Source: Bacteroidota bacterium
Lineage (GTDB): Bacteria > Bacteroidota > Bacteroidia > Cytophagales > Microscillaceae
Assembly (NCBI GenBank): GCA_004292795.1
Contig: RDXI01000018.1
Span: 1 to 51,913, forward strand
Direction: 5' to 3'
Length of the DNA stretch: 51,913 nt
Position numbers and translations under genes: made by a program. How positions within the stretch are numbered: position 1 is the first letter of the stretch; each line of letters opens with the position of its first letter. Under the pieces are notes generated by a model that was not told the DNA's origin, ran no database searches, and worked only from the letters and a program-made list of their open reading frames with translations. Positions 12,923 through 41,447 of this stretch are shown in pieces.

Positions 12923-13156
12923 AGAACAGGGGGGAATGTAAAGACAAAGATACATTTTTTTTTTGATAACGCAAAAGCGAGCCTTTTTTGTCTATTTGTA
13001 TATTCTTTTGCCCAATATCCCACAAGATAGGTCGTCTAATAGCCCTCAATGCTTGCAAAAACAACCAAAAAACACTAATTTTGGGGCGAAATAAACAAAA
13101 AGCCTGCACAGTTTCTTGTTTAGAAGATTGTTTTTAAACTTCTTACCGTTCTATAA

Positions 13157-16064
13157 ATGCCTCTCAAGTTAGACTTCGCGGACAGGTTCGAGCAACGTCA
13201 TCATGGCACACGCGCCCAAGACATTGCTGAAATGCTCCAAACCATTGGCGTACAAAGCCTTGACGAACTGATTGAAAAGACCGTTCCTGCGTCTATTCGC
13301 CTTCCCAAACCTATCAAGGTTACAGCCCCCAAAACAGAACAAGAATTTTTGGCTGATTTCAAGAAATTGGCAGGCAAGAACCAAGTGTTCAAATCGTTTA
13401 TAGGTATGGGCTATTATGATACGCACACGCCTAACGTTATTTTGCGCAATATCCTTGAAAATCCGGGTTGGTACACCGCCTACACGCCTTACCAAGCCGA
13501 AATAGCACAAGGTCGCCTCGAAGCCCTTATCAATTTCCAAACGATGGTTATGGATTTGACAGGTATGGAAATTGCCAATGCTTCCCTGCTTGACGAAGGC
13601 ACTGCGGCGGCTGAAGCTATGACCATGCTTCACAGCTTGCGCAAAGGCACACGCAAAAGTGCAGAAACGTTTTTTGTGTCGGAACTTTGCCACCCGCAAA
13701 CCATCGATGTACTAAAAACCCGCGCTACACCGCTTGGCATCAACCTATTGATAGGCAATCACGAAACTGTCGACCTTACCTCGCCTGAAATCTACGGCTT
13801 GCTTCTGCAATATCCTGCTACCAATGGCGAAGTATTCGACTACACGAACCTTATCGCCACAGCAAAAGAACTCGGCATTTTTACCGCAGTAGCGACTGAC
13901 TTGTTGGCTCTCACTATCTTGAAAGCACCCGCTGAAATGGGCGCAGACGTGGCAGTGGGTTCTGCACAACGCTTGGGCGTGCCTATGGGCTATGGCGGAC
14001 CTCACGCGGCATTTTTTGCTACCAAAGACGAATACAAGCGACAAATTCCCGGGCGCATTATTGGGGTTTCCATAGATGCAGAAGGCAACAAAGCTTACAG
14101 GATGGCGTTGCAAACCCGCGAACAGCACATCAGACGCGAAAAAGCTACTTCGAATATCTGTACTGCCCAAGTATTGCTTTCTGTGATGGCGAGTATGTAC
14201 GGCGTATATCACGGACCTAAAGGCTTGCGTACTATTGCGGAACGTGTGTATGGCTTGACGCAACTTACCAAACAAGGGCTTGAGAAATTGGGCTTCGAAA
14301 TTGAGAACAAATATTATTTCGATACCATCACGGTTGTCTTGCCTGCTGACAAAATAGAGGCATTGCGCAAATCAGCTGAAAAAGTACAGATAAACTTCCG
14401 CTATTATGCAGAAGCAGGCAAGGTAGGAATCAGCTTTGACGAAGCCAAAACTACTGATGATGTAAACGCTATTTTCAAACTCTTCACCGCAGTAGGTAAG
14501 GAGCAAACCACGAAAGAAAAAACTGCCTTCACGACCTACACAAAAAGCCTTGCCAAAAACATCGAAATTCGCTTGCCTGATGACCTTATCCGCACAAGTG
14601 ACTACATGACGCACCCTGTTTTCAATACGCACCACACCGAACACGCGATGTTGCGCTATATGAAGCAGTTGGAAAACAAAGATTTGTCGTTGGTACATTC
14701 GATGATTGCGCTCGGTTCTTGCACGATGAAACTGAACGCAACGGCAGAAATGATACCCGTAACGTGGCGCGAATTTGGAGGCATACACCCCTTCGCTCCT
14801 CGCACACAGGCGCAAGGCTATACTGAATTGTTTACCAATTTGGAGAAATGGTTGTGCGAAATCACAGGCTTTGCGGGAACGAGCTTGCAACCCAATTCGG
14901 GAGCGCAAGGCGAATACGCGGGCTTGATGGCTATTCGTGCTTACCTACAACACAAAGGCGAGTCCGCTTATTCCTTCTTCGGCACATGGCACAAACCCTG
15001 CGAGTGCTGTCATGGCAGGTATGCAAGTAATTGTAACGAAATGTGACGAACATGGCAATATCGACTTGGCTGACCTTCGCGCCAATGCCGAAAAATACAA
15101 AGATAACCTTGCCTGCTTGATGGTTACGTATCCCTCGACTCACGGAGTTTTTGAGGAAGCTATCCAAGAAATATGCTCGATGATACACGAGTTTGGCGGA
15201 CAGGTATATATGGACGGTGCGAACATGAACGCGCAAGTGGGGCTTACCTCGCCTGCTATGATTGGCGCAGACGTTTGTCATTTGAATTTGCACAAAACAT
15301 TTTGTATTCCGCATGGAGGCGGTGGTCCTGGTATGGGTCCTATTTGCGTAGCTTCGCATCTTGTGCCTTTCCTACCTCACCACGCTGTAGTGTCTTTCTC
15401 CAATAGCAAAGAAACAGCCGTTTCTGCCGCGCCTTGGGGCAGTGCAAGCATCTTGACTATCTCGTATGCCTACATAGCCATGATGGGAGGCGAGGGCTTA
15501 ACCAACGCTACCAAAATGGCAATCCTCAATGCCAATTACATCAAAAAACGCCTCGAAGGGCATTACAACGCGCTGTATGCAGGCAAGAATGGTACTTGCG
15601 CCCACGAATTTATAGCCGATTGCCGAGATTTCAAGGCGCAAGGCGTAGAAGTGGCAGACATGGCAAAACGTTTGATGGATTACGGTTTCCACGCGCCTAC
15701 GGTTTCCTTCCCTGTGGCAGGCACACTCATGATAGAACCTACCGAGAGCGAAGACCGCGCAGAATTGGATAGATTTTGCGAGGCTTTGATTGCCATTCGT
15801 GAAGAAATACGCGAAATAGAGGCAGGCAAGGCTGAAAAAGGCAACAACGTTATCGTAAACGCGCCTCATACGGCTTTGATGGTTACCGCTTCGAATTGGG
15901 AAAAACCCTACTCACGCGAAAAGGCGGCTTATCCCCTTCCTTACCTGCGCGTAGGCAAGTATTTCCCTGCTGTTGCCAAAATAGACAACGCATACGGGGA
16001 CCGCAATCTCGTTTGTGCGTGTATTCCTGTAGAGGAGTACGCGAGTGAGGAGGCTGTGGCGTAA
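13157..16064 (+). pseudogene. gcvP: Glycine dehydrogenase (decarboxylating), the glycine cleavage system P protein. It is disrupted and split into two overlapping ORFs (13157-15046 and 14937-16064).
   Basis: Full-length colinearity with GcvP across both ORFs: GMGYYDTHTPNVILRNILENPGWYTAYTPYQ, the PLP site [18 protein letters not shown], and the C-terminal [10 protein letters not shown]. The frame changes at about 14960-14972. About nine conserved residues are missing there; E. coli has RNEGHRDIC between ES and LIPASAHG. Confidence 0.8.
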
Positions 16065-16075
16065 CGAACTTTTTT

Positions 16076-16121
16076 AGGTTGTTTGTAGTTATTGTAAAAA
16101 GGCTACAGACAACCTTTTTTA
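16076..16121 (+). terminator. Terminator downstream of gcvP
   Basis: Stem aggttgtttgtag/ctacagacaacct with one mismatch, followed by tttttt. Confidence 0.55.
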
Positions 16122-16151
16122 TCTCTTTCTAACCTAAAAACAATCAATCCT

Positions 16152-17345
16152 ATGAAAGAAACTAACCATTTATTTGAAGGCGAAGAATTTGCGCTTAATA
16201 CTCCAAAGGGGAGCAATATCATTCAAATCTCTGATGAAGATATTAATCAAAAATACAGACGAGGTGAAATACGCATTGTTACAGAACAAGCGCGTTATCC
16301 CCTTGATAGTATTGAAACTATGTTAGATACTGGTAAATACATATTAAATCCTGAATATCAACGTAGAAAACGTTGGGATAATGTGAGAAAATCTCGCTTA
16401 ATTGAGTCGTTTATTATGAATGTCCCTATTCCCCCTGTTTTTTTGTATGAGGTGGATTATTCAAAATATGAAGTAATGGATGGGCAACAACGCCTTACCA
16501 CAATTTATGATTTTTATCAAGGTAAATTTGAATTAGAAGGATTGGAACTCTGGAGCGAGCTAAATGGTAAAACTTATCAAAACCTTCCTGAACAAGTAAA
16601 AGGAGGTATAGATAGGCGTTATCTTTCTTCTATTGTGTTATTAAGAGAAACAGCCAAAAATGATATAGAAGCAGAAGAATTAAAAAAAATGGTCTTTGAA
16701 AGACTAAACAGTGGCGGGGAAAAATTAACCCCACAAGAAACAAGAAATGCTATATACAATGGGAAATTTAATCAATTGTGTTTGCGATTAGCAAAAAGTG
16801 ATGCTTTTAGAAAAATGTGGGGCTTGCCATTGGAAAGTGATAGTGAGATTAAAAAATTAAAAAGCGAACCATATAGAAAAATGGAAGATGCAGAATTAGT
16901 TTTAAGATTTTTTGCTTATCGTCATGTAAATGAATTAGTTTCTCCAATAGATAAGTTCCTTGATGCTTTTTTAGATAGAGCTAATAGCTTTTCTGATAAA
17001 CTTATGCAAGAACTTGAAGACATATTTATAAAGACTATAGATTTAATATATGCTATTTTTGGAAAAGATGCGTTTCTTTTGCCTATTAAAGTTCTAAAAT
17101 ACAAAACACCTTCAAAAACTGTATATGATCCTATGATGCAAGCATTCTCTACAAATTTACAGCATAAAGATATTTTGTTAGCTAAATGTGATGAGGTGAG
17201 GCGAAAAAGGTATGAAGACACAGATGTTCTTTTTATATCAGATAGTAAGTATTTATTTGATGGAAGGAAAAATAACAGAAATGATGTAATAGAGCGTATA
17301 GAATATTTTGATAAATTTATCAAATCATTTATCGAAACAACATGA
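16152..17345 (+). CDS. DUF262 (ParB-like nuclease/NTPase superfamily) domain protein
   Basis: PEYQRRKRW and DGQQRLTT are the signature motifs of DUF262 (PF03235). It has no DUF1524/HNH C-terminal domain. The gene is AT-rich. Confidence 0.75.
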   Translation: MKETNHLFEGEEFALNTPKGSNIIQISDEDINQKYRRGEIRIVTEQARYPLDSIETMLDTGKYILNPEYQRRKRWDNVRKSRLIESFIMNVPIPPVFLYEVDYSKYEVMDGQQRLTTIYDFYQGKFELEGLELWSELNGKTYQNLPEQVKGGIDRRYLSSIVLLRETAKNDIEAEELKKMVFERLNSGGEKLTPQETRNAIYNGKFNQLCLRLAKSDAFRKMWGLPLESDSEIKKLKSEPYRKMEDAELVLRFFAYRHVNELVSPIDKFLDAFLDRANSFSDKLMQELEDIFIKTIDLIYAIFGKDAFLLPIKVLKYKTPSKTVYDPMMQAFSTNLQHKDILLAKCDEVRRKRYEDTDVLFISDSKYLFDGRKNNRNDVIERIEYFDKFIKSFIETT

Positions 17346-18178
17346 ACCAGTTTTCCCTTGACAAATTCAAAAACGAACTTTCTCAACTGCGTGCATACCT
17401 ACAACACATTCAAAACGTGAATGAAGTGATAGGTTATGCACCTGTGGAAACAGATAGCGAAGTTATAACTATGCTGATAGAAAAGTTAAGAAAACAAGAG
17501 TTTGATAGTAATTTTAGAATAAATAGAAAAACTTTTGAGTACAAAGCAGTTATTATATCGCTGTATGGTACTCTCGAAAGAACTATAGAAAATTGGGTAA
17601 AGGAATATCTTGATGCTTTGTCGGGTATTGTTACAGATTATGCTAAACTTCCTGATAAAATAAAAGATAACCACTTTAAAAATTCTCTTGAATTGATTAC
17701 CGATAAATTAAGCAAAAAAGACATAGCTCCAAAATACCAACATTTGAGAAAAGAGGAGGTTTTGAAAATACTGAATCAATGTGTAGAACAAGGGACAGAG
17801 TATAAATTTAATGCAGATGCTTTTTTATTATCTTCTGGGAATTTAAAACATGATAAAATAGCACCAATATTAGCAAATTTGGATATAGATTTGAAACAAA
17901 CTACTTTTCTAAAAGATAAATCTGAAAATGAAAAAAAAGCTATCTATGCTCTCATAGATGAACTTGTAGAAAGGCGTAATGAAGTAGCACATGGTTCTGA
18001 TAGTGTTATTGACAACTTATTAGAAGTATCTTTAATTGAAGAACATATCATCAACTTAGAGATTTATGTCAGTGCTATATTTGACATTCTCAATCAAAGG
18101 CTTATCCGTTTTGAAGCTGAGGAGTCAGGGGCTTTTTTTTTTAGTAAACATAGCGAAGGATACGGTTTGGCAACATAA
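17342..18178 (+). CDS. HEPN-domain protein (predicted RNase)
   Basis: Its start overlaps the DUF262 stop by 4 bp (ATGA). An Rx4H motif (ERRNEVAHG) lies near the C-terminus within an all-alpha context. A T10 run at 18133-18142 joins this frame to the downstream ORF 18066-18422. Confidence 0.55.
   Translation: MNQFSLDKFKNELSQLRAYLQHIQNVNEVIGYAPVETDSEVITMLIEKLRKQEFDSNFRINRKTFEYKAVIISLYGTLERTIENWVKEYLDALSGIVTDYAKLPDKIKDNHFKNSLELITDKLSKKDIAPKYQHLRKEEVLKILNQCVEQGTEYKFNADAFLLSSGNLKHDKIAPILANLDIDLKQTTFLKDKSENEKKAIYALIDELVERRNEVAHGSDSVIDNLLEVSLIEEHIINLEIYVSAIFDILNQRLIRFEAEESGAFFFSKHSEGYGLAT
18133..18142 (+). repeat. T10 homopolymer at the junction of the HEPN ORF and an out-of-frame downstream ORF
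   Basis: gggg-ctttttttttt-agt. A one-nucleotide slip would fuse the HEPN protein to about 95 extra residues (LVNIAKDTVWQHK...KNNQK). The downstream ORF has no start codon of its own. Confidence 0.7.
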
Positions 18179-18431
18179 AATTGTAGGCATTTTTTTAGAG
18201 GATTATACAGTCAAAATAGATGATTTCGTACTTATTGAAACACCTGATAAAGAATTTTTAAAAGAAAGGATAGTAGGAATAGGAACGGGGAGCGGTAAGG
18301 ATTTAAAGAAACATACAAATCTTTCTGTTATAGATAAAACAGAAGTAGCTATTATCGTCAATGCTCATCTAAGTAACAATGCAAAGTCCCATAAATTCTA
18401 TTTGAAAAACAATCAAAAATAGAATAAAACT

Positions 18432-18818
18432 ATGCTATATTTTCAAAAATACTCCACCCAATTTTGCCAAACCTTCAGTCATTTGCAGGCAAAAAATCTG
18501 CATTTACAAGCGAGTTACGCGCTTGATACGGAATGGTTTGCTATGCAATTTCGCTTCGTAGAACAACCCACTTCAGGCGAGTTCGAAGCTATCGAGATAA
18601 ACTTTGAGGCGATGTTGGCAGAAGAAAATACTACAAAAGAGGCGTTTTTGCAAGAAATACAGTACAATAAAAAAATAATATTCTACGATATTGAAACCTT
18701 GTATATTTTTAACTCGCCTACTTTGGAGCGTTGGATACCCGAACACGCTATGCAAGATGCAAGAGATGTTTTAGGCATTATGTTTAATTCTTTAACCAAT
18801 TATCCACAAACTATATGA
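18432..18818 (+). CDS. Hypothetical protein (128 aa), the third gene of the DUF262-HEPN cassette
   Basis: ORF directly downstream on the same strand. No motifs recognised. Confidence 0.4.
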   Translation: MLYFQKYSTQFCQTFSHLQAKNLHLQASYALDTEWFAMQFRFVEQPTSGEFEAIEINFEAMLAEENTTKEAFLQEIQYNKKIIFYDIETLYIFNSPTLERWIPEHAMQDARDVLGIMFNSLTNYPQTI

Positions 18819-20751: not shown

Positions 20752-20848
20752 AGGGGCAACCCTTGTGGTTGCCCTTTGTGTAAATACGCATTTTTATTTT
20801 AAACACGATTTGTGTCCGAAAAAGGGCAACCACAAGGGTTGCCCCTAC
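20752..20848. repeat. Pair of inverted REP-like hairpins (GGGGCAACCCTTGTGGTTGCCC and GGGCAACCACAAGGGTTGCCCC) separated by 40 bp
   Basis: Hairpins at 20755-20775 and 20825-20845 are reverse complements of each other. A third copy forms the terminator at 1946-1976. Confidence 0.75.
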
Positions 20849-20926
20849 ATTTTGAAATTTCTGTATATTTTTTGTGGCGTGTGTACTCACGCGCCATATT
20901 TTTCTAAAACAAAACAACCTTCGAAT

Positions 20927-22291
20927 ATGAAAATCAAACAACTGAACATAGAGAACTACAGGGGCTTCGAGCAGGCAAGCATTACCTTTCCCGACAACAA
21001 TTTGGCTGTTTTCATTGGCGCGAATGGAGCAGGCAAGACGAGTGTGTTGGATTTGGTGGCGAGTTTTTTGGAGGATTTTTTGTTGGGGATACATAACTAC
21101 TATCCTTTACAAAATAAAGAAATTAACCATAAAAAAGGTGTAACAAATGAATTTATCAATATTATAAATGAAGCAAATGCTAAATATTCTTTTGGTATCA
21201 CACATACAAACGAATTTGCCTTTGATGAAAAAGACTTAAAATATAGGGCAAAAGAATTACATAGTAAGATGTTTTTAGAAAATATAGAATTATCCAGAGA
21301 TATTACTGGAAATGGCTTATACTCAGAAAGACAAATTTTTACACCTGAAATTAAACTGAAAAGAACAAAGGAAATATTAGGAAACCCATTGTTTAGCACA
21401 CCAATTTTTGTTTATTTTCAGTTAAATGTTACTAAAGCTAAACGAGAAAGATATTACTCAATTCCGCAACTTGCTGTTTATGAGGAACTTACATCAAATA
21501 TAAATAATTTTGCTGTTTTCAAAGCTTGGTTCAAGCAAGAAGAAGATTTTGAAAATCAAGAAAAAGTAAACCAAGAAAATCTTGCCTACCGAAACCCCAA
21601 ATTAGAGATAGTTCGAAAGGTATTGGAAACTTTTTTCCAAAAAATAGAAAGTCCCGTTTTTGCCAAAATGCGCATACACAGGCAAGGAAGTAAAATATTT
21701 GATTTCAATAAAAAATTTTCAGCAGATAGTTTATTGATTGATAAAAATGGACAACCTTTCGAGATAGAACGACTTTCTTCAGGTGAAAAATCGTTGATGC
21801 TTTTGGTGGCTGACATAGCGAGGCGATTGTCTATAGCCAATCCTGCGTTCTCGCCTACTGAAGCCCTGCAAAAAGGCGAAGGCGTGGTGTTGATAGACGA
21901 AATAGAGCAACACTTGCACCCGCGTTGGCAACGTTTGGTCTTGCCTGCCCTACAAACCACATTTCCGAATGTACATTTTATTGTTACTACTCATTCGCCC
22001 CAAATAGTGAGCAGTGTTCCGCGTGAGAGCGTTTTTATTTTGGATAATTTCCAAATAAAAGACTACAAACCTTACACACAAGGACGCGACAGCAATTCTA
22101 TTTTACAAGATGTGTTCGGGGTGGAAACTTATCCACAAGCGTACAAAGAAAAATTGCACCAATTACATCAACTTATCCATGATGAAAAAGCAGACCAAGC
22201 CCAAAAGTTAATGCAAGAACTTATCAGTTATTGGGGCGAAAACGACAGGGAAATAAAACGCGCTCAATTATATTTAGAGGACATTGTATGA
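20927..22291 (+). CDS. ptuA: Septu defence system ATPase PtuA (AAA_15/AAA_21-type ABC-like ATPase)
   Basis: Walker A FIGANGAGKTS. Walker B and H-loop VVLIDEIEQHLHP ... TTHSP. The start is set at the ATG after the hairpins, and the ORF-track extension to 20765 is spurious. There is an AT-rich internal segment. Confidence 0.75.
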   Translation: MKIKQLNIENYRGFEQASITFPDNNLAVFIGANGAGKTSVLDLVASFLEDFLLGIHNYYPLQNKEINHKKGVTNEFINIINEANAKYSFGITHTNEFAFDEKDLKYRAKELHSKMFLENIELSRDITGNGLYSERQIFTPEIKLKRTKEILGNPLFSTPIFVYFQLNVTKAKRERYYSIPQLAVYEELTSNINNFAVFKAWFKQEEDFENQEKVNQENLAYRNPKLEIVRKVLETFFQKIESPVFAKMRIHRQGSKIFDFNKKFSADSLLIDKNGQPFEIERLSSGEKSLMLLVADIARRLSIANPAFSPTEALQKGEGVVLIDEIEQHLHPRWQRLVLPALQTTFPNVHFIVTTHSPQIVSSVPRESVFILDNFQIKDYKPYTQGRDSNSILQDVFGVETYPQAYKEKLHQLHQLIHDEKADQAQKLMQELISYWGENDREIKRAQLYLEDIV

Positions 22292-22968
22292 AACACATCA
22301 AAAAACAAGCTAAAGAACCTGCCACTATCACAGAAATAAAGTCTGTAAACGGTACTTTTGACGACCTCGACAAAGAACAAGTACAAAATGCTTTGCTCGA
22401 GGAGCAGGGCTATCTTTGTGCCTATTGTATGCGCAGAATTAGCCGAGAGTGGAATCCTGATGCCAACAAATGGAAAATTGAAATAGAGCATTACAAGCCA
22501 CAAGAAAAGTATCCTGAAAAAGCTTTAGACTACAGCAATATGCTGGGTGTTTGCAACGGCACAGCAGGCGAAAAACTGCATTGCGACAAAACCAAAGGAG
22601 GCAAAGCAGATGGAAAAGTAGAGCTAAAAAAACTCAATCCTTTGGACAGCAACTGCGAAACAATGCTTCAATACCTTCCTGATGGCACTATTCAAAGCGT
22701 GAATGGTGATGCAGAAGTTGAGTCCGACTTAGACAAAGTGCTAAATTTGAATGACACCAAACTAAAAGAATTTCGCGCAGATGCTATCGAGAAGGCATGG
22801 CGAGAGTTCCAAGAAAAACACAAGAAAAATAAAGGGAGTTGGACTAAAAAGATGTTTCAAGATGAGATAAATCGCCTAAAACAACCCAATAAAAAAGGCA
22901 GATACACCGAATATTGCCAATGTCTTATCTACTTCTTTGAGAAAAAGCTAAAAAGAGCGCAAGCATAA
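22288..22968 (+). CDS. ptuB: Septu defence system HNH endonuclease PtuB
   Basis: Overlaps the ptuA stop by 4 bp (ATGA). HNH motif CAYCMRRIS...IEHYKPQ...[21 protein letters not shown], as in the TIGR02646-type HNH. Length 226 aa. Confidence 0.75.
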
Positions 22969-28021: not shown

Positions 28022-29014
28022 TTATTGTACTCGCACTACTTCCAATTCAGGAGTAGCAGAAGGAGAGAATATTTTTTGCCAGAATGATTTTTTCTTTTCG
28101 AGGGTTTGTGCGTGTGCGAGTTCAGTATGCACTTTGAGTTCTTCTTGTTGATAATGGTAGTGCAAGAAATCTGTAAAAATGCGCTTGTCTTGAATTTCCC
28201 AAAAATGCACACCATCTTTGATTTGCATATAGTCCAAAATGCCTTTCCTGCCTCTGTCGCCTGATATTTGTTGATTGAGCCAACGCTGAATGGATTGCGC
28301 AGTGGCAGTTTCGCCTCTGTAACGCTCAAAATAAGGACGTACAAACTCAAACACACTCAAATCGTCAGCCTCTTGGTATTGGTCTTTGATAGAAAAATGA
28401 TATTGAATTTCTTGTATATCTACTATAGCTATATCTCCAAAACAATTTTTTAAATCTTCTGCCGTAACACGCGCTCTGGCTGTGAGTTTGAGCAGGAAGG
28501 CGAGCTTGGGAGCTATTTTGGGGAATAACATCTTGAATTGATTGAGAAACTGCCCAAAACGGAGCTGAAAGCAGGCAAGGAGTTGTCTTGCCTCCTGTGT
28601 GTGTGTTTGCGCCTTGTCTTCGAGCCACGAGGCGCGGTCTTGCGCGTCAGCATCATTTTCAAAAGGCGCAACCGCCCTTTCCCACTCCATACTACCGCGC
28701 TGTTGATTGCGTTCACGCTGAAGGAGCGTGTTCAGTTGGTTGAAAATAGTGCGCGTAAAGTAGTGTTTGAATCGATGTTCATCATCACACGCCTCTCGAA
28801 AGCTCTTGCTTGGGAAAGTCTTTGTGAGTAAGTGCAAATAAATCTCTTGGAAAAAATCTTGCTGATGTTGGTTGTAGGCAGGAAAGTTCTTCAGGTAAGC
28901 ACGAATCTTACCCTTCAAAAAATGCTCACAATGCTCCAGCACCCGCTCATACTGCTGTGCTTCTAACCAAACCGCGATTTGGTGTGCCGAGATAGACTTT
29001 AACAATTTATTCAT
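28022..29014 (-). CDS. Putative ECF-type sigma factor with a C-terminal extension, co-oriented 10 bp upstream of the anti-sigma gene
   Basis: N-terminal region weakly like sigma-70 region 2 (QDFFQEIYLHLLTK...). Its position immediately upstream of a zf-HC2 anti-sigma gene fits an ECF-type sigma factor. Confidence 0.4.
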   Translation of the reverse strand: MNKLLKSISAHQIAVWLEAQQYERVLEHCEHFLKGKIRAYLKNFPAYNQHQQDFFQEIYLHLLTKTFPSKSFREACDDEHRFKHYFTRTIFNQLNTLLQRERNQQRGSMEWERAVAPFENDADAQDRASWLEDKAQTHTQEARQLLACFQLRFGQFLNQFKMLFPKIAPKLAFLLKLTARARVTAEDLKNCFGDIAIVDIQEIQYHFSIKDQYQEADDLSVFEFVRPYFERYRGETATAQSIQRWLNQQISGDRGRKGILDYMQIKDGVHFWEIQDKRIFTDFLHYHYQQEELKVHTELAHAQTLEKKKSFWQKIFSPSATPELEVVRVQ

Positions 29015-29243
29015 AACATAACACCTTATACATGAAACACCTGTCTTTTATAATACCAAATGGACATCAAAAAGTGGGGTAAAATTAGGCTTTTTTTTTC
29101 AATTTTTCAAAGTTTTTTTTTTCAAAACCATTTTTTTAAAAAATAGATTGTAAGATTTGTTGTTAATACAATGTTATACTAATATTGCAAGTGTTAACGA
29201 TTGTGTTAGCAGAAATCCAATTTAACCAAAACATTCATTTCAA

Positions 29244-32200
29244 ATGAAACACAAGATACTTTACACGCTTTTAGCGTGGTGTGTGTCGCTTGGGCTTGCA
29301 TTTGCCCAAGGACGAGTTGTTTCAGGTACAGTGACAGACGCAAGCAACGGTGAGGGACTGCCGGGTGTTAGCGTTTACCTGAAAGGAACAACTACTGGGA
29401 TTGCCACTGACGCAGATGGTAAATTCCAACTAACAGTTCCTAATGCAAGTGGAGATATTCTTGTTATCTCTTTGCTTGGCTACAACGACCAAGAAATTAC
29501 GCTTGGCGCGGAAGCAGAAATAAAAGTAGCACTTGCTTCCAATGCAAGCCAATTAGGTGAGGTCGTAGTAACTGCACTTGGTATTGAGAAGGAGAAGAAA
29601 GGTTTGGGTATAGCTGTTACAGAGCTGAAAGCGGCTGATATCCAGAATACACGCTCTACTAACTTGGTTAATAGCCTTTCAGCGCGTGTGGCTGGTGTAC
29701 GTGTGCAAGGCTCTAATGGTATGGTGGGTTCATCTTCTGCTATATTCATTCGCGGTTTTACAACTTTTACGGGTAGCAACCAACCACTATTCGTAATAGA
29801 TGGTATTCCAATCGATAACTCTGGTGGCGGTAATGAACTTCAAACGGGTGTATCTAACTCAAATCGTGGGCTTGACATCAATCCTGATGACATCGAGAGT
29901 ATGTCTATCTTGAAAGGACCTGCCGCGGCTGTTTTGTATGGTTCAAGAGCTGCTGCTGGTGCTATCATGATAACCACCAAAAAAGGAAAAGCAGGTAAAA
30001 TGAAAGTTGATTTATCCACATCTTACCAAGTATCTAATGTGAATAGATTTCCTGATTACCAAAACAGTTATGGACAAGGATCTGGTGGACTTACTAATAC
30101 CTCGCCTACTGTTGCTGCTATCTCACCCTTTTCTTGGGGACCTGCTTTTGGTACAGTTTCCACATTCCCTAATTATTTGGCAGTGCGCCAAAACCCCAAC
30201 GACCCCACAAGTCCTTTGATACCCAATGAGACTTATCAGGCATATCCAAATAACGTGAGGGATTTGTTCAATCAGGGTAACAACTTACAAAACTCTCTTA
30301 CAATTTCGGGTGGAAATGAAAAGAACAGCTTCAATGCGTCCTATTCAAATACACGTGAGAATGGTATCATCAAAAATAACTTCTTGAATCGTAATACATT
30401 TCGCATCACAGGGACTTCACAACTTACCAATAAGTTCTCTGCAGGGTTGAGCTTGAATTACATCAATACATACTCAACTCGTACACAACAAGGCAATCAA
30501 CTTTCAAACCCATTTTTCCGTAGTTGGTTTTTACCACGCAGTGTGAATGCGGCTAATTATCCTTTGAATAACCCTAATGGTACGCCCAACTCTTGGTTTG
30601 ATGGTGCAGATAATCCTTTGTGGACTATTGAAAATAACAAATACCAAGATGAGGTAAACCGTGTATTGGGTAATATCAATTTAGCGTATGACTTCACTGA
30701 TTGGCTTACGCTTACCTACAAGTTAGGTACTGATTATACTAACTTCACAGCCAACACATATGATGCGCCAGGAGCACGCGGTGCGGCTAACCACAACGTC
30801 AATGGCGCAGGTGCTATTGGCAAGCGTGTTAATCAAACTATGTTGATAAGCTCATTCTTGAACCTCACAGCAAAGAAAAAAATTAATGATGATTTTAACC
30901 TTTATGTGTTGTTGGGACAAGAGTTGAATGAAATCCGCAATGTAAATCGCTTTGCTTTGGGTTCAGGTGTAGGTGTTACTGGTTTCGAGAATATTTCAAA
31001 TGCCACCACTTACAACGCTACCAATGCTGAAGCCTTGACACGTTTGATGGGTGTATATTTGAATGCACAGTTAACTTTCCGTAATTTCTTATTTTTAGAT
31101 GTTTCAGGTCGTAATGATAGGTCTTCTACCTTCACTAAAGGTAACAATTCTTATTTTTATCCTTCAGCTTCATTGAGTTTTGTGGTAACTGATGCGATTA
31201 GTGCTTTGAAAGACAATCCTATTCTTTCTTTTGCAAAAATTCGTACAAATCTTGCACGTGTTGGTCGTGTAGCACCTGCCTATAGCACAAATACTTATTT
31301 TTATAGCACAGGTACTACTGTTAGTGATGGTTTTGGTCCCACTATCCAATTCCCTTTCAATAATTTACCAGGCTTTACTTATGACAATACATTAGGTATT
31401 CCTGACTTACAGCCAGAGTTTACAGTTACACGCGAGATTGGTACAGAGCTTAAATTCTTGAAAAACCGAATCTCTGTTGATTTAGGGTATTTCAGCACCA
31501 AAAGTAGCAATATCATCTTGGCTGTTCCTATTGCTTCTGCATCAGGCTTTAACAGTGTAGTTAGAAATGCAGGTGTTTTGCAAACGAATGGTATAGAGCT
31601 ATTGTTATCAGGTACTCCTATCAAAAAGGAAAACTTCCAATGGGATGTTAGTTTGAACTGGACTCGTATCCGTAACAATGTAAAAGAATTAGCTCCAGGT
31701 GTTACAGTGATTGGATTGGGTGGTTTTACTACGCCTCAAACACGTTTGGAAGCTAATGCGCCTTATGGTGTGATTTATGGTTCGGCATTTGTTCGCCACA
31801 CTGATGGTCGTATGTTGATAGGCACCAATGGTTTACCAAGCCTTCAACCTACTATCCAAAAAATAGGAGACCCCAATCCTGACTGGACAGCTGGTTTGAC
31901 TAATACGCTTACCTACAAAGGGTTCTCATTTAGCTTCTTGCTTGATTTCCGCAAAGGCGGTGATATTTTCTCTCGCAATATTGGCGATTTACGCCGTACA
32001 GGTGCTGTGGTAGAAACTGGTGATAGAGAGCGTACTTATATCGTGCCTGGTGTAAAAACAAATGCGCTTGGACAAGTAGTTACTGATGCTAGTGGCAATG
32101 CTGCATCTAATGACATACAAATCACTGCAGAACAATATTGGGGTGGAATGTTTGGATTTGGTATAGGTGAGTCATATATATTTGATGGAAGTTGGGTACG

Positions 32201-32432
32201 TCTTCGTGAAGCTTCATTGACATACAGCTTACCCAAGTCACTCATCTCACGCGCTAAATTGAGCAATGTAGAAATAGGTGTTTCTGGTCGCAATTTGTTG
32301 CTTTGGGCTCCCAATGCACCACACATTGACCCTGAAGTGAATGCACAAGGTGCAAGTAATTCACAAGGCTTAGAGTTCAATGCTTTGCCTCAAACACGCA
32401 ATATGGGTTTTGTATTGCGTATTTCTTACTAA
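29244..32432 (+). CDS. SusC/RagA-family TonB-dependent outer-membrane receptor
   Basis: Signal peptide. Carboxypeptidase-regulatory-like domain (GRVVSGTVTDASNGEGLPGVSVYLKG). TonB box and plug. Ends in a C-terminal aromatic residue. Length 1062 aa. Confidence 0.9.
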   Translation: MKHKILYTLLAWCVSLGLAFAQGRVVSGTVTDASNGEGLPGVSVYLKGTTTGIATDADGKFQLTVPNASGDILVISLLGYNDQEITLGAEAEIKVALASNASQLGEVVVTALGIEKEKKGLGIAVTELKAADIQNTRSTNLVNSLSARVAGVRVQGSNGMVGSSSAIFIRGFTTFTGSNQPLFVIDGIPIDNSGGGNELQTGVSNSNRGLDINPDDIESMSILKGPAAAVLYGSRAAAGAIMITTKKGKAGKMKVDLSTSYQVSNVNRFPDYQNSYGQGSGGLTNTSPTVAAISPFSWGPAFGTVSTFPNYLAVRQNPNDPTSPLIPNETYQAYPNNVRDLFNQGNNLQNSLTISGGNEKNSFNASYSNTRENGIIKNNFLNRNTFRITGTSQLTNKFSAGLSLNYINTYSTRTQQGNQLSNPFFRSWFLPRSVNAANYPLNNPNGTPNSWFDGADNPLWTIENNKYQDEVNRVLGNINLAYDFTDWLTLTYKLGTDYTNFTANTYDAPGARGAANHNVNGAGAIGKRVNQTMLISSFLNLTAKKKINDDFNLYVLLGQELNEIRNVNRFALGSGVGVTGFENISNATTYNATNAEALTRLMGVYLNAQLTFRNFLFLDVSGRNDRSSTFTKGNNSYFYPSASLSFVVTDAISALKDNPILSFAKIRTNLARVGRVAPAYSTNTYFYSTGTTVSDGFGPTIQFPFNNLPGFTYDNTLGIPDLQPEFTVTREIGTELKFLKNRISVDLGYFSTKSSNIILAVPIASASGFNSVVRNAGVLQTNGIELLLSGTPIKKENFQWDVSLNWTRIRNNVKELAPGVTVIGLGGFTTPQTRLEANAPYGVIYGSAFVRHTDGRMLIGTNGLPSLQPTIQKIGDPNPDWTAGLTNTLTYKGFSFSFLLDFRKGGDIFSRNIGDLRRTGAVVETGDRERTYIVPGVKTNALGQVVTDASGNAASNDIQITAEQYWGGMFGFGIGESYIFDGSWVRLREASLTYSLPKSLISRAKLSNVEIGVSGRNLLLWAPNAPHIDPEVNAQGASNSQGLEFNALPQTRNMGFVLRISY

Positions 32433-40330: not shown

Positions 40331-40433
40331 CTTGGTATGCTCAAAAAAAAATTTTTATTTTTGTTTAATTGAGTATTTGTTATGTATATTTGCATACTTT
40401 ACTTCTTTAAAAATCTCTAACCAAGTAAAAACT

Positions 40434-41447
40434 ATGCGCTCTGAAGATACCCTCTACCAAAATGTTCGCGAAATCATCTTGAACGCGAAGGCAAAAATCA
40501 ACCACACTGTCAATTTTACAGTGGTCGAAACCTATTGGCTTATAGGCAAGTACATCATCGAAGAAGAACAGCAAGGCAAACACCGCGCTGAGTATGGAAA
40601 ACAACAGATGAAACTTTTGGCTGAAAAGCTAACAGATGAGTTTGGTAAAAATTATGATAGAAGCAATCTTTTGCGCATGAAGAATTTTTACCTGCTTTTC
40701 CCAATTCGTGACGCACTGCGTCACGAATTGAGTTGGTCGCATTATCGCTCTCTTTTGCGCGTGGAAAGTGAGCAGGCAAGGCATTTTTATATCGCGGAGG
40801 CTATCTCGAATAATTGGGGAACGCGGGCTTTGGATAGACAAATCAATACGTTGTATTATGAACGCTTGCTTGCCTCCCAAGACAAAACACCCGTGAAACA
40901 AGAGATGTACGACAAAACAAAGGATTTAGCACCCGAAGACATCTTGAAAGACCCCTATATTTTGGATTTTCTGCAAATAGAAACACGCAAAACTTACCTC
41001 GAATCCGAACTCGAACAGGCTTTGATGGACAAGCTAAACGATTTTTTGTTGGAGTTAGGCAAGGGCTTTGCTTTTGTGGGAAGGCAAAAAAGAATAAGCA
41101 CCGAAACGAAAGATTTTTATATTGATTTGGTGTTTTACAACTATATTTTGAAATGCTTTGTGTTGATTGATTTGAAAATTGATGAACTTACACATCAAGA
41201 TATTGGGCAAATGGATATGTATGTGCGGCTTTTTGAGGATAAATACAAAGGTTCAGACGACAATCCGACTATTGGCTTGATACTCTGCACGCACAAAGAC
41301 CAAACTATAGTAAAATATTCAGTTTTGCATGAAAGTAAACAACTTTTTGCCTCCAAATATATGCTTTACTTGCCTACCGAAGAAGAACTAAGAAAGGAAA
41401 TAGAGCGCGAAAAGTATTTGATAGAACGCGAAAGGGCAGATAAATAA
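40434..41447 (+). CDS. YhcG/DUF1016-family PD-(D/E)xK nuclease-like protein, paralog 2
   Basis: Co-linear with paralog 1 (ETYWLIGKYI..., FYIDLVFYNYILKCFVLIDLKIDEL). Start set at MRSED. Confidence 0.7.
   Translation: MRSEDTLYQNVREIILNAKAKINHTVNFTVVETYWLIGKYIIEEEQQGKHRAEYGKQQMKLLAEKLTDEFGKNYDRSNLLRMKNFYLLFPIRDALRHELSWSHYRSLLRVESEQARHFYIAEAISNNWGTRALDRQINTLYYERLLASQDKTPVKQEMYDKTKDLAPEDILKDPYILDFLQIETRKTYLESELEQALMDKLNDFLLELGKGFAFVGRQKRISTETKDFYIDLVFYNYILKCFVLIDLKIDELTHQDIGQMDMYVRLFEDKYKGSDDNPTIGLILCTHKDQTIVKYSVLHESKQLFASKYMLYLPTEEELRKEIEREKYLIERERADK

What the first reader, a model, noticed from the sequence alone, without database searches (positions are those of the whole stretch)
18066..18422. 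T10 homopolymer at 18133-18142 couples the HEPN ORF to a start-less out-of-frame ORF
Direct reading shows the HEPN frame ...EESGAFFFSKHSEGYGLAT* running through a run of ten T. The other frame (SQGLFFLVNIAKDTVWQHK...KNNQK, about 95 more residues) has no ATG/GTG/TTG start of its own after the HEPN stop. A one-base slip in the T-run would fuse the two, giving a product of about 370 aa. Homopolymer slippage is a classic ON/OFF or long/short phase-variation mechanism for restriction and defence genes. A sequencing error is the alternative.
Basis: seen in the sequence. Interest (0 to 1): 0.6.

Follow-up and report, generated by a model that had tools for sequence, protein, structure and literature searches.

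The report
One-base frameshift splits a defence nuclease gene
A run of ten T's carries one T more than in related bacteria, so a phage-defence RNase gene that is normally one reading frame is cut into a truncated enzyme and a stranded tail domain; this is an ordinary, possibly reversible, frameshift allele, not a demonstrated genetic switch.

Summary
T10 lies at 18133-18142. The HEPN ORF (17342-18178, 278 aa) runs through it and stops 12 codons later. The +1 frame stays open to 18422 with no start codon between 18112 and 18401.

The fusion idea is right. Removing one T gives a 359-aa protein, and about 200 homologues (350-360 aa) match it end to end. Two orthologous loci in the same gcvP-flanked position carry GGGGC-T9-AGT at this site and read as one ORF.

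The gene is the HEPN partner of a two-gene DUF262-HEPN defence module. That pairing is seen in 55 of 61 fetched loci, and the architecture resembles PD-T4-2.

An independent Logan assembly of run SRR7244347 also gives T10, so an assembly error is less likely, though no reads could be counted.

Phase variation is not shown. The tract fits the locus's AT-rich codon usage (31% GC), there is no family-wide conserved tract, and the exact T9 product is absent from the protein collection.

Most likely this is a recent +1 T slippage mutation that truncates the effector and could revert. It is an ordinary finding of modest interest.

The parts
16152..17345 (+). Gene A of the module: a DUF262 / GmrSD_N (ParB-like NTPase) protein of 397 aa with the DGQQR motif. 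Its stop overlaps the HEPN start (ATGA at 17342-17345).
   Evidence: Pfam GmrSD_N 2e-30. PADLOC NsnA 1e-71 and PD-T4-2_A 1.6e-36. A homologue lies directly upstream of the HEPN gene in 55 of 61 loci.
17342..18178 (+). Gene B as it stands: the HEPN ORF of 278 aa. It holds the complete HEPN domain plus a 12-aa out-of-frame tail (FSKHSEGYGLAT).
   Evidence: Pfam HEPN_RiboL-PSP 5.2e-18 (residues 46-251) and HEPN_MAE_28990 1.7e-11. Identical to the NCBI protein TAE18829.1.
17972..17992 (+). HEPN catalytic motif RRNEVAH (R-x4-H), residues 211-217.
   Evidence: R211, R212, N213, A216, H217, G218 and S219 are invariant in the 19-sequence alignment A1.
18133..18142 (+). T10 homopolymer, the frameshift site. 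It lies in the linker between the last HEPN helix and the first beta-strand.
   Evidence: The orthologous loci L001 and L002 have T9 here. In the AlphaFold model the helix ends at 272 and the barrel starts at 276 in P0002 numbering.
18141..18422 (+). Stranded C-terminal coding segment in the +1 frame: 93 codons plus a stop, with no start codon of its own. It encodes a beta-barrel like domain II of translation GTPases.
18066..18422 (+). Its first 25 codons overlap the HEPN ORF out of frame and are not homologous to anything.
   Evidence: This exact product is not in the protein collection.

Best explanation
The window carries a frameshifted allele of a gene that is normally one ORF.

The locus is a two-gene defence module. 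Gene A is a DUF262/ParB-like NTPase. Gene B is a HEPN RNase (RiboL-PSP / MAE_28990 type, with an R-x4-H motif) that ends in a beta-barrel resembling domain II of translation GTPases.

In this small Bacteroidota clade the linker between the HEPN domain and the barrel is encoded as GCT TTT TTT TTA, a T9 run. In the sampled population one extra T was added (T9 to T10), most likely by slipped-strand mispairing during replication.

Standard decoding now gives a 278-aa protein with an intact HEPN domain, a 12-residue junk tail and no barrel. The barrel-coding segment is still intact but untranslated.

Because the barrel is kept in every full-length relative across phyla, the truncated protein is most probably inactive or uncoupled from its normal control. 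That amounts to a knock-out of a costly or toxic effector.

The change is intrinsically reversible by T10 to T9 slippage. A small fraction of full-length product could arise from RNA-polymerase or ribosome slippage on U10. Nothing shows that this is used or selected.

Shown here: the tract, the frame relations, the single-ORF state and T9 in orthologues, the domain fold, and the operon conservation. Inferred: that T10 is real in the DNA, that the truncated product has lost function, and the defence and RNase activity itself.
For: - Frame relations and tract.
- About 200 homologues of 350-360 aa cover 99-100% of the T9-restored protein. The only 100% hit is the 278-aa protein of this contig.
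- L001 and L002 are orthologous. Their gcvP-side flank is 88-94% identical and the downstream flank about 90%. Both have T9 in one ORF.
- The Logan assembly of SRR7244347 (L003, 3192 nt) is identical to window 15420-18611, T10 included.
- The other coding A/T runs of 8 (9744, 16682, 17931, 49125) are in frame, so there is no general homopolymer error pattern.
- The C-terminal segment is conserved and folds as a domain.
- Its divergence from L001 is mostly synonymous, with no secondary damage, so the shift is recent.
- Other family members are disrupted in other ways: L037, L043, L045, L046 and L050, which is 5 of 58.
- A/T runs of nine or more are slippage-prone and hypermutable (Baranov et al. 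2005, PMC1088944).
Against: - No reads were available, so T10 rests on two assemblies that presumably used the same reads.
- The neighbouring gcvP gene also looks broken, by a deletion of about 13-14 nt. This could mean local assembly defects in this MAG.
- Loss of function of the barrel-less protein is inferred only. The E. coli PD-T4-2 system works with a much shorter second gene; both of its ORFs span 1540 nt. A HEPN-only partner is therefore not impossible.
- One T9/T10 polymorphism among three orthologues is also what a selected switch would show.
Confidence: 0.6

Rival explanations
1. Sequencing or assembly artefact: the real genome has T9 and an intact 359-aa gene, and the tenth T is a homopolymer miscall carried into the consensus.
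For: - The window is a metagenome-assembled contig.
- By inference from the neighbouring locus-tag prefix EAZ87, which belongs to a PH2015 Eel River MAG, the data are Illumina HiSeq 4000 reads assembled with IDBA_UD.
- The adjacent gcvP gene carries an unexpected frameshift.
- The barrel ORF shows no decay.
Against: - A different assembler (Logan contigs of SRR7244347) reproduces T10 and is 100% identical over 3192 nt.
- Illumina consensus errors at a 10-mer are uncommon.
- All other coding A/T runs of 8 in the window are in frame.
- The gcvP defect is not at a homopolymer, so it does not point to a homopolymer error mode.
Confidence: 0.17
2. True phase-variable (contingency) locus: the T9/T10 tract is kept because frequent reversible slippage switches the effector between a full-length form and a barrel-less form (or ON and OFF). 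This would trade phage protection against cost or autoimmunity.
For: - The tract length differs among three orthologous loci (T10, T9, T9).
- The tract sits exactly at a domain boundary, so the short product keeps a whole HEPN domain.
- T8 and T11 both terminate at once (direct reading).
- Defence genes are classic targets of repeat-mediated phase variation (general knowledge; reviews listed).
- The barrel ORF is undamaged.
Against: - The tract is expected from composition: the locus is 31% GC and P(T9 | AFFL) is about 0.22.
- The three loci share local ancestry (81-88% identity around the tract), so its conservation carries little weight.
- There is no conserved tract elsewhere in the family. 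Runs of 9 or more occur in only 4 of 40 genes, at different positions.
- The exact T9 product of this strain is absent from 15 billion proteins.
- Only one sample holds this strain.
- No within-population data exist.
Confidence: 0.13
3. Programmed recoding: the T10 arrangement is decoded by transcriptional slippage or +1 ribosomal frameshifting on U10 to give both a short and a long protein, as the A9 run does for Thermus dnaX tau/gamma or as in IS elements.
For: - Runs of 9 or more A/T give heterogeneous mRNAs in many bacteria, and dnaX uses this at a similar distal position (PMC1088944).
- On U10 a P-site tRNA-Phe can re-pair perfectly after a +1 slip (direct reading of codons 18134-18143).
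Against: - The orthologues are in frame with T9, so the out-of-frame arrangement is not conserved.
- Restoring the frame from T10 needs -1 or +2, whereas +1 insertions dominate slippage at A/T runs (PMC5574713).
- There is no stimulatory hairpin or terminator-like structure at the tract: folding z-score +1.35 and no terminator hit.
Confidence: 0.05
4. Two genuine separate genes: the barrel is made on its own from ATG 18066 (or GTG 18072, TTG 18081 or TTG 18111) as a 118-aa protein that acts in trans.
For: A mechanical ORF with an ATG exists at 18066-18422.
Against: - Its first 25 or so codons are an out-of-frame read of the HEPN gene and match no homologue.
- Every relative has the barrel fused.
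- This exact product is not on record.
Confidence: 0.03

Closest known systems
PD-T4-2 anti-phage system of E. coli ECOR65 (Vassallo et al. 2022, PMC9519451)
   Same: Both are two-gene operons of a DUF262 protein followed by a HEPN protein. Supplementary Table S1 lists the system as 'DUF262, HEPN', and a review assigns PF18735 to it (PMC10952713). Gene A here hits the PADLOC PD-T4-2_A model at 1.6e-36. Gene B hits Pfam PF18735.
   Different: Gene B here hits no PADLOC model, PD-T4-2_B included, even at E = 10. The E. coli ORFs span only 1540 nt, against 2271 nt here, so the E. coli HEPN partner is much shorter and probably lacks the beta-barrel. Gene A matches NsnA better (1e-71). No activity was tested here.
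RiboL-PSP-HEPN / MAE_28990 HEPN families in operons with ParB (DUF262), predicted by Anantharaman et al. 2013 (PMC3710099)
   Same: Both show the same Pfam families, the same R-x4-H motif and the same pairing with a ParB/DUF262 gene.
   Different: Table 1 of that paper lists a fusion to endoRNase L-PSP and operons with ParB and methylase. The passages read do not mention a C-terminal barrel like translation-factor domain II, and no methylase lies next to this locus.
Simple-sequence-repeat contingency loci (homopolymer phase variation of R-M and surface genes in Haemophilus, Neisseria, Campylobacter, Helicobacter)
   Same: A homopolymer inside a defence gene whose length decides the reading frame, and the length differs between close relatives.
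   Different: Those tracts are usually poly-G/C or long repeats near the 5' end, are conserved as tracts, and vary within populations. Here the tract is a T9/T10 at 74% of the gene, is explained by AT-rich codon usage, and comes with no population data.
Thermus thermophilus dnaX tau/gamma transcriptional slippage on A9 (described in Baranov et al. 2005, PMC1088944)
   Same: An A/T run of nine in the distal part of a gene, where non-3n slippage products terminate just after the run and yield a shorter protein lacking the C-terminal domain. The T9 orthologues would behave this way.
   Different: There is no evidence that the short product is used. In the window the DNA itself is out of frame.
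Menshen (NsnABC) system
   Same: Gene A is the best PADLOC match to NsnA (1e-71, nearly full length).
   Different: Menshen needs an NsnB ATPase and an NsnC effector directly downstream (PMC12065111). Here the next gene is the HEPN protein.

Membership tests
RiboL-PSP / MAE_28990 HEPN nuclease family | Pfam PF18735 or PF18737 match above the gathering score | tested here: met
   66.1 bits against a cut-off of 28.4, and 45.2 bits against 26.8.
RiboL-PSP / MAE_28990 HEPN nuclease family | R-x4-6-H catalytic motif | tested here: met
   RRNEVAH at residues 211-217, invariant in alignments A1 and A2.
RiboL-PSP / MAE_28990 HEPN nuclease family | Full-length architecture of the subfamily (HEPN plus C-terminal beta-barrel, about 355 aa) in one ORF | tested here: not met
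   The window ORF stops at 278 aa, and the barrel is in the +1 frame. Relatives are 350-360 aa.
PD-T4-2 defence system | Adjacent DUF262 gene and HEPN gene in one operon | tested here: met
   ATGA overlap at 17342-17345. Pfam hits. The pairing is seen in 55 of 61 loci.
PD-T4-2 defence system | Match to the PADLOC PD-T4-2_A model | tested here: met
   1.6e-36, although NsnA scores higher at 1e-71.
PD-T4-2 defence system | Match of the second protein to a PADLOC PD-T4-2_B model | tested here: not met
   No PADLOC hit at E up to 10 for the restored protein or for P0007; P0002's only hit is Csm2 at 0.049, not PD-T4-2_B.
PD-T4-2 defence system | Protection against phage | not testable with these tools
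   Needs cloning and a plaque assay.
Menshen (NsnABC) | NsnA followed by an NsnB ATPase and an NsnC effector | tested here: not met
   The gene after the NsnA-like gene is HEPN. The nearest ATPase is PtuA of a separate Septu pair at 20765-22968.
Repeat-mediated phase-variable (contingency) locus | Repeat tract whose length change shifts the reading frame | tested here: met
   T10 splits the gene and T9 fuses it.
Repeat-mediated phase-variable (contingency) locus | Tract length polymorphic among close relatives | tested here: inconclusive
   T10, T9, T9 in three orthologous loci. The sample is too small, and an error cannot be excluded.
Repeat-mediated phase-variable (contingency) locus | Tract maintained beyond what composition predicts | tested here: not met
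   P(T9 | AFFL) is about 0.22 with the locus's codon usage. There is no conserved tract across 40 family genes.
Repeat-mediated phase-variable (contingency) locus | Reversible switching within a population | not testable with these tools
   No reads. The exact T9 product is not in the collection, and only one sample holds the strain.
Programmed transcriptional slippage / ribosomal frameshift gene | Out-of-frame arrangement conserved among homologues | tested here: not met
   The orthologues and all distant relatives are in frame.
Translation-GTPase domain II beta-barrel (EF-Tu D2-like fold) | Structural similarity of the C-terminal segment | tested here: met
   [not shown]
Translation-GTPase domain II beta-barrel (EF-Tu D2-like fold) | Sequence-family membership (Pfam GTP_EFTU_D2 or a related model) | tested here: not met
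   No Pfam hit even at E = 10.

The most novel reading that the evidence does not exclude
The T9/T10 run at the linker between the HEPN domain and the beta-barrel is a selected slippery switch in an environmental Bacteroidota defence module. Replication slippage, and on T9 alleles RNA-polymerase slippage, would toggle or mix a full-length barrel-coupled RNase and a barrel-less RNase. The same conserved junction would also serve as the recombination point where alternative barrel alleles are swapped. That would be homopolymer-based phase variation or isoform control of a DUF262-HEPN system outside the host-adapted pathogens where such switches are known.
Probability: 0.1. Interest if true: 0.6.

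Novelty: new member of a known kind. Interest (0 to 1): 0.3.

Why it matters
In practical terms, the annotated 278-aa 'hypothetical protein' (TAE18829.1) and the unannotated stretch after it are one disrupted gene and should be read as such.

Biologically, this adds one more case of a defence effector disabled by the cheapest possible mutation. Disruptions of this kind recur in the family (5 of 58 loci).

The by-products are more interesting than the frameshift:
- A DUF262-HEPN two-gene module is spread across many phyla.
- Its HEPN partner always carries a beta-barrel like domain II of translation GTPases, which the Pfam and PADLOC searches did not annotate.
- That barrel is swapped as a cassette between close relatives, exactly at the tract.

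If the tract turned out to switch in populations, it would extend repeat-mediated phase variation of immunity to free-living Bacteroidota.

Tried and rejected
- Close relatives in other collections. Scans of GTDB genomes and JGI metagenomes with the restored protein found none. An exact DNA pattern around the tract found nothing in metagenome contigs. Tract-length statistics therefore rest on three loci.
- Other samples of the same strain. Exact look-ups of the DUF262 protein returned only the one Logan contig. Look-ups of the 128-aa neighbour and the gcvP N-terminal ORF returned nothing.
- The exact T9 product and the 118-aa ORF product are not in the protein collection.
- Intrinsic terminator or stimulatory hairpin at the tract: none found.
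- A selected tract: rejected as unsupported after the codon-usage calculation and the survey of homopolymers in 40 family genes.
- Menshen membership: rejected, because there is no NsnB or NsnC.
- A natural GcvPA/GcvPB split as the explanation for the gcvP break: rejected, because the break lies inside the GcvPB-like region and 4-5 conserved residues are missing.
- Wagner et al. 1990 (PMC331007) could not be read. Slippage statements rest on PMC1088944 and PMC5574713.

Full report
**Observation**

The sequence at 18128-18145 is GGGGC TTTTTTTTTT AGT, with the ten T's at 18133-18142. The ORF 17342-18178 (278 aa) reads ...EESGAFFF SKHSEGYGLAT* through the run. The frame one base ahead is open from 18060 to the stop at 18420-18422.

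In that frame the only start codons are ATG 18066, GTG 18072, TTG 18081 and TTG 18111, plus TTG 18402 near the end. The first four lie inside the HEPN ORF and upstream of the run. A 118-codon open frame in this 31% GC sequence has a chance probability of about 5e-5. The description is therefore correct.

Some details need adjusting. Removing one T gives 359 aa, not about 370. T8 and T11 both run directly into TAG, so only -1 or +2 restores the frame.

**What the two pieces are**

The 278-aa ORF has a complete HEPN domain: Pfam HEPN_RiboL-PSP 5e-18 over residues 46-251, and HEPN_MAE_28990 2e-11. Its catalytic RRNEVAH motif is invariant in relatives.

A search with the T9-restored protein found about 200 homologues. 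Nearly all are 350-360 aa long and cover 99-100% of the query. The only 100% match is the 278-aa protein annotated on this very contig, 'MAG: hypothetical protein EAZ95_03185 [Bacteroidetes bacterium]'.

The segment after the run is conserved in cyanobacterial, Bacteroidota, Firmicutes, Actinobacteria and other relatives. An AlphaFold model of the closest full-length relative (pLDDT 87.8) shows a helical HEPN body up to residue 272 and a beta-barrel from residue 276. The run therefore encodes the interdomain linker.

**Orthologues**

Two Logan contigs, L001 and L002, carry the same locus. They show the DUF262 gene, then the HEPN gene, with the same gcvP-side flank (88-94% identity) and downstream flank (about 90%). 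Both have GGGGC-T9-AGT at the same site and encode single ORFs of 370 and 356 aa. The ancestral state is therefore T9, and the window has one extra T.

Downstream of the run the window differs from L001 by 13 of 279 nt. Nine of these are synonymous, four are conservative replacements, and there is no indel or stop. The stranded segment has therefore not decayed, and the shift is recent or not real.

**Is T10 real?**

The Logan assembly of run SRR7244347 contains a 3192-nt contig identical to window 15420-18611, T10 included. This is an independent assembler, although presumably working from the same reads.

The neighbouring locus-tag prefix EAZ87 belongs to a PH2015 Eel River mat MAG. That project used HiSeq 4000 reads and IDBA_UD (PMC6776057). 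The link to this window is an inference. Other coding A/T runs of 8 in the window are in frame, so there is no general homopolymer error pattern.

Against this, the adjacent gcvP gene is also broken at about 14964. The break is a loss of 4-5 conserved residues plus a frameshift, and it is not at a homopolymer. It may be a local assembly defect or a second genuine lesion. I put an artefact at roughly 0.17.

**Context**

Gene A (16152-17345) is a DUF262/GmrSD_N protein with the DGQQR motif. Its stop overlaps the HEPN start in ATGA. It matches PADLOC NsnA (1e-71) and PD-T4-2_A (1.6e-36).

A DUF262 homologue lies directly upstream of the HEPN homologue in 55 of 61 fetched loci from many phyla. This is a conserved two-gene module of the kind predicted by Anantharaman et al. 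2013: RiboL-PSP-HEPN 'operon with ParB'. It shares its architecture with PD-T4-2, listed as 'DUF262, HEPN' and protective against T4.

It is not a clean PD-T4-2 member. The HEPN protein hits no PADLOC model, and the E. coli system is only 1540 nt long. It is not Menshen either, because NsnB and NsnC are absent.

The module is a 31% GC island between gcvP (49% GC) and miaB (47% GC). A Septu PtuA/PtuB pair lies just beyond miaB.

**Switch or accident?**

With the locus's codon usage (TTT 87% of Phe codons, TTA 40% of Leu, GCT 50% of Ala), an Ala-Phe-Phe-Leu linker gives a T9 run with probability about 0.22. The three loci are 81-88% identical around the run, so its conservation carries little weight.

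Cyanobacterial and other Bacteroidota relatives lack the two-residue insertion and have no tract there. Among 40 full-length family genes, runs of 9 or more occur in four, at different positions and in frame.

There is no hairpin or terminator at the run. The exact T9 protein of this strain is absent from the 15-billion-protein collection, and the strain is seen in one sample only.

Five of 58 distant loci are disrupted in other ways: a frameshift, an insertion, an internal deletion and truncations. That suggests this effector is often lost.

Runs of nine or more A/T are known to be hypermutable and to cause transcriptional slippage (PMC1088944). Insertions dominate that slippage (PMC5574713). 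T10 would thus need the rarer -1 or +2 events to yield a full-length product.

**Verdict**

The most likely reading (0.6) is a real, recent +1 T slippage mutation that truncates the HEPN effector of a DUF262-HEPN defence module. It is reversible in principle but not shown to be a regulated switch.

The rivals are an assembly artefact (0.17), a true contingency locus (0.13), programmed recoding (0.05) and two separate genes (0.03).

The phase-variation reading remains untested. Counting anchored reads over the tract, with the two intergenic T10 tracts as controls, would settle the matter.

Noticed in passing
window 13157-16064 (junction at about 14960-14970): The glycine dehydrogenase gene gcvP is split into two overlapping ORFs (13157-15046 and 14937-16064). 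TIGR00461 profile positions 577-580 are missing. Alignment to solved GcvP structures shows a 4-residue gap (E. coli HRDIC region) plus a frameshift, which fits a deletion of about 13-14 nt. The break is not at a homopolymer. It could be a pseudogene or a local assembly error.
   Followed up: partly
window 20765-22968: A Septu-type defence pair lies here: PtuA ATPase (PADLOC 9e-102, match from residue 55, so the true start is probably near 20927) and PtuB HNH nuclease (3e-57). It sits just beyond miaB, so miaB is flanked by two defence modules.
   Followed up: partly
window 16152-18422 versus L001 and L002: Orthologous loci are mosaics. Window against L002 is 98% identical at 17647-17736 but about 50% after the T tract. 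Window against L001 is 39-64% identical at 17647-17967 but 94-97% after the tract. Recombination breakpoints fall at the tract, which is the domain boundary, so the beta-barrel looks like an exchangeable cassette with two alleles of about 45% amino-acid identity.
   Followed up: partly
[not shown]
   Followed up: partly
loci L037, L043, L045, L046, L050: Homologues of the HEPN gene are disrupted in other genomes in different ways. In L037 the barrel is replaced after about residue 279. L043 has a frameshift near residue 207-215. L045 has an internal deletion from 144 to 314. L046 has an insertion of about 1.4 kb. L050 is truncated at about residue 130.
   Followed up: partly
window 12955-12964 and 29091-29137: Other long T runs lie in intergenic regions: T10 upstream of gcvP, and a cluster of T9, T10 and T7 between divergent genes 28022-29014 (-) and 29244-32432 (+). 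They would serve as in-sample controls for homopolymer read error.
   Followed up: no
window 40343-40351: An A9 run lies at codons 4-7 of the ORF 40332-41447. The true start may be downstream, or this is another slippage-prone site.
   Followed up: no
window 18432-18818: This 128-aa ORF after the module has no Pfam, NCBIfam or PADLOC hit. It is conserved at about 90% in L001, and its start in L002, but is absent next to distant homologues. It therefore belongs to the flank, not to the module.
   Followed up: partly
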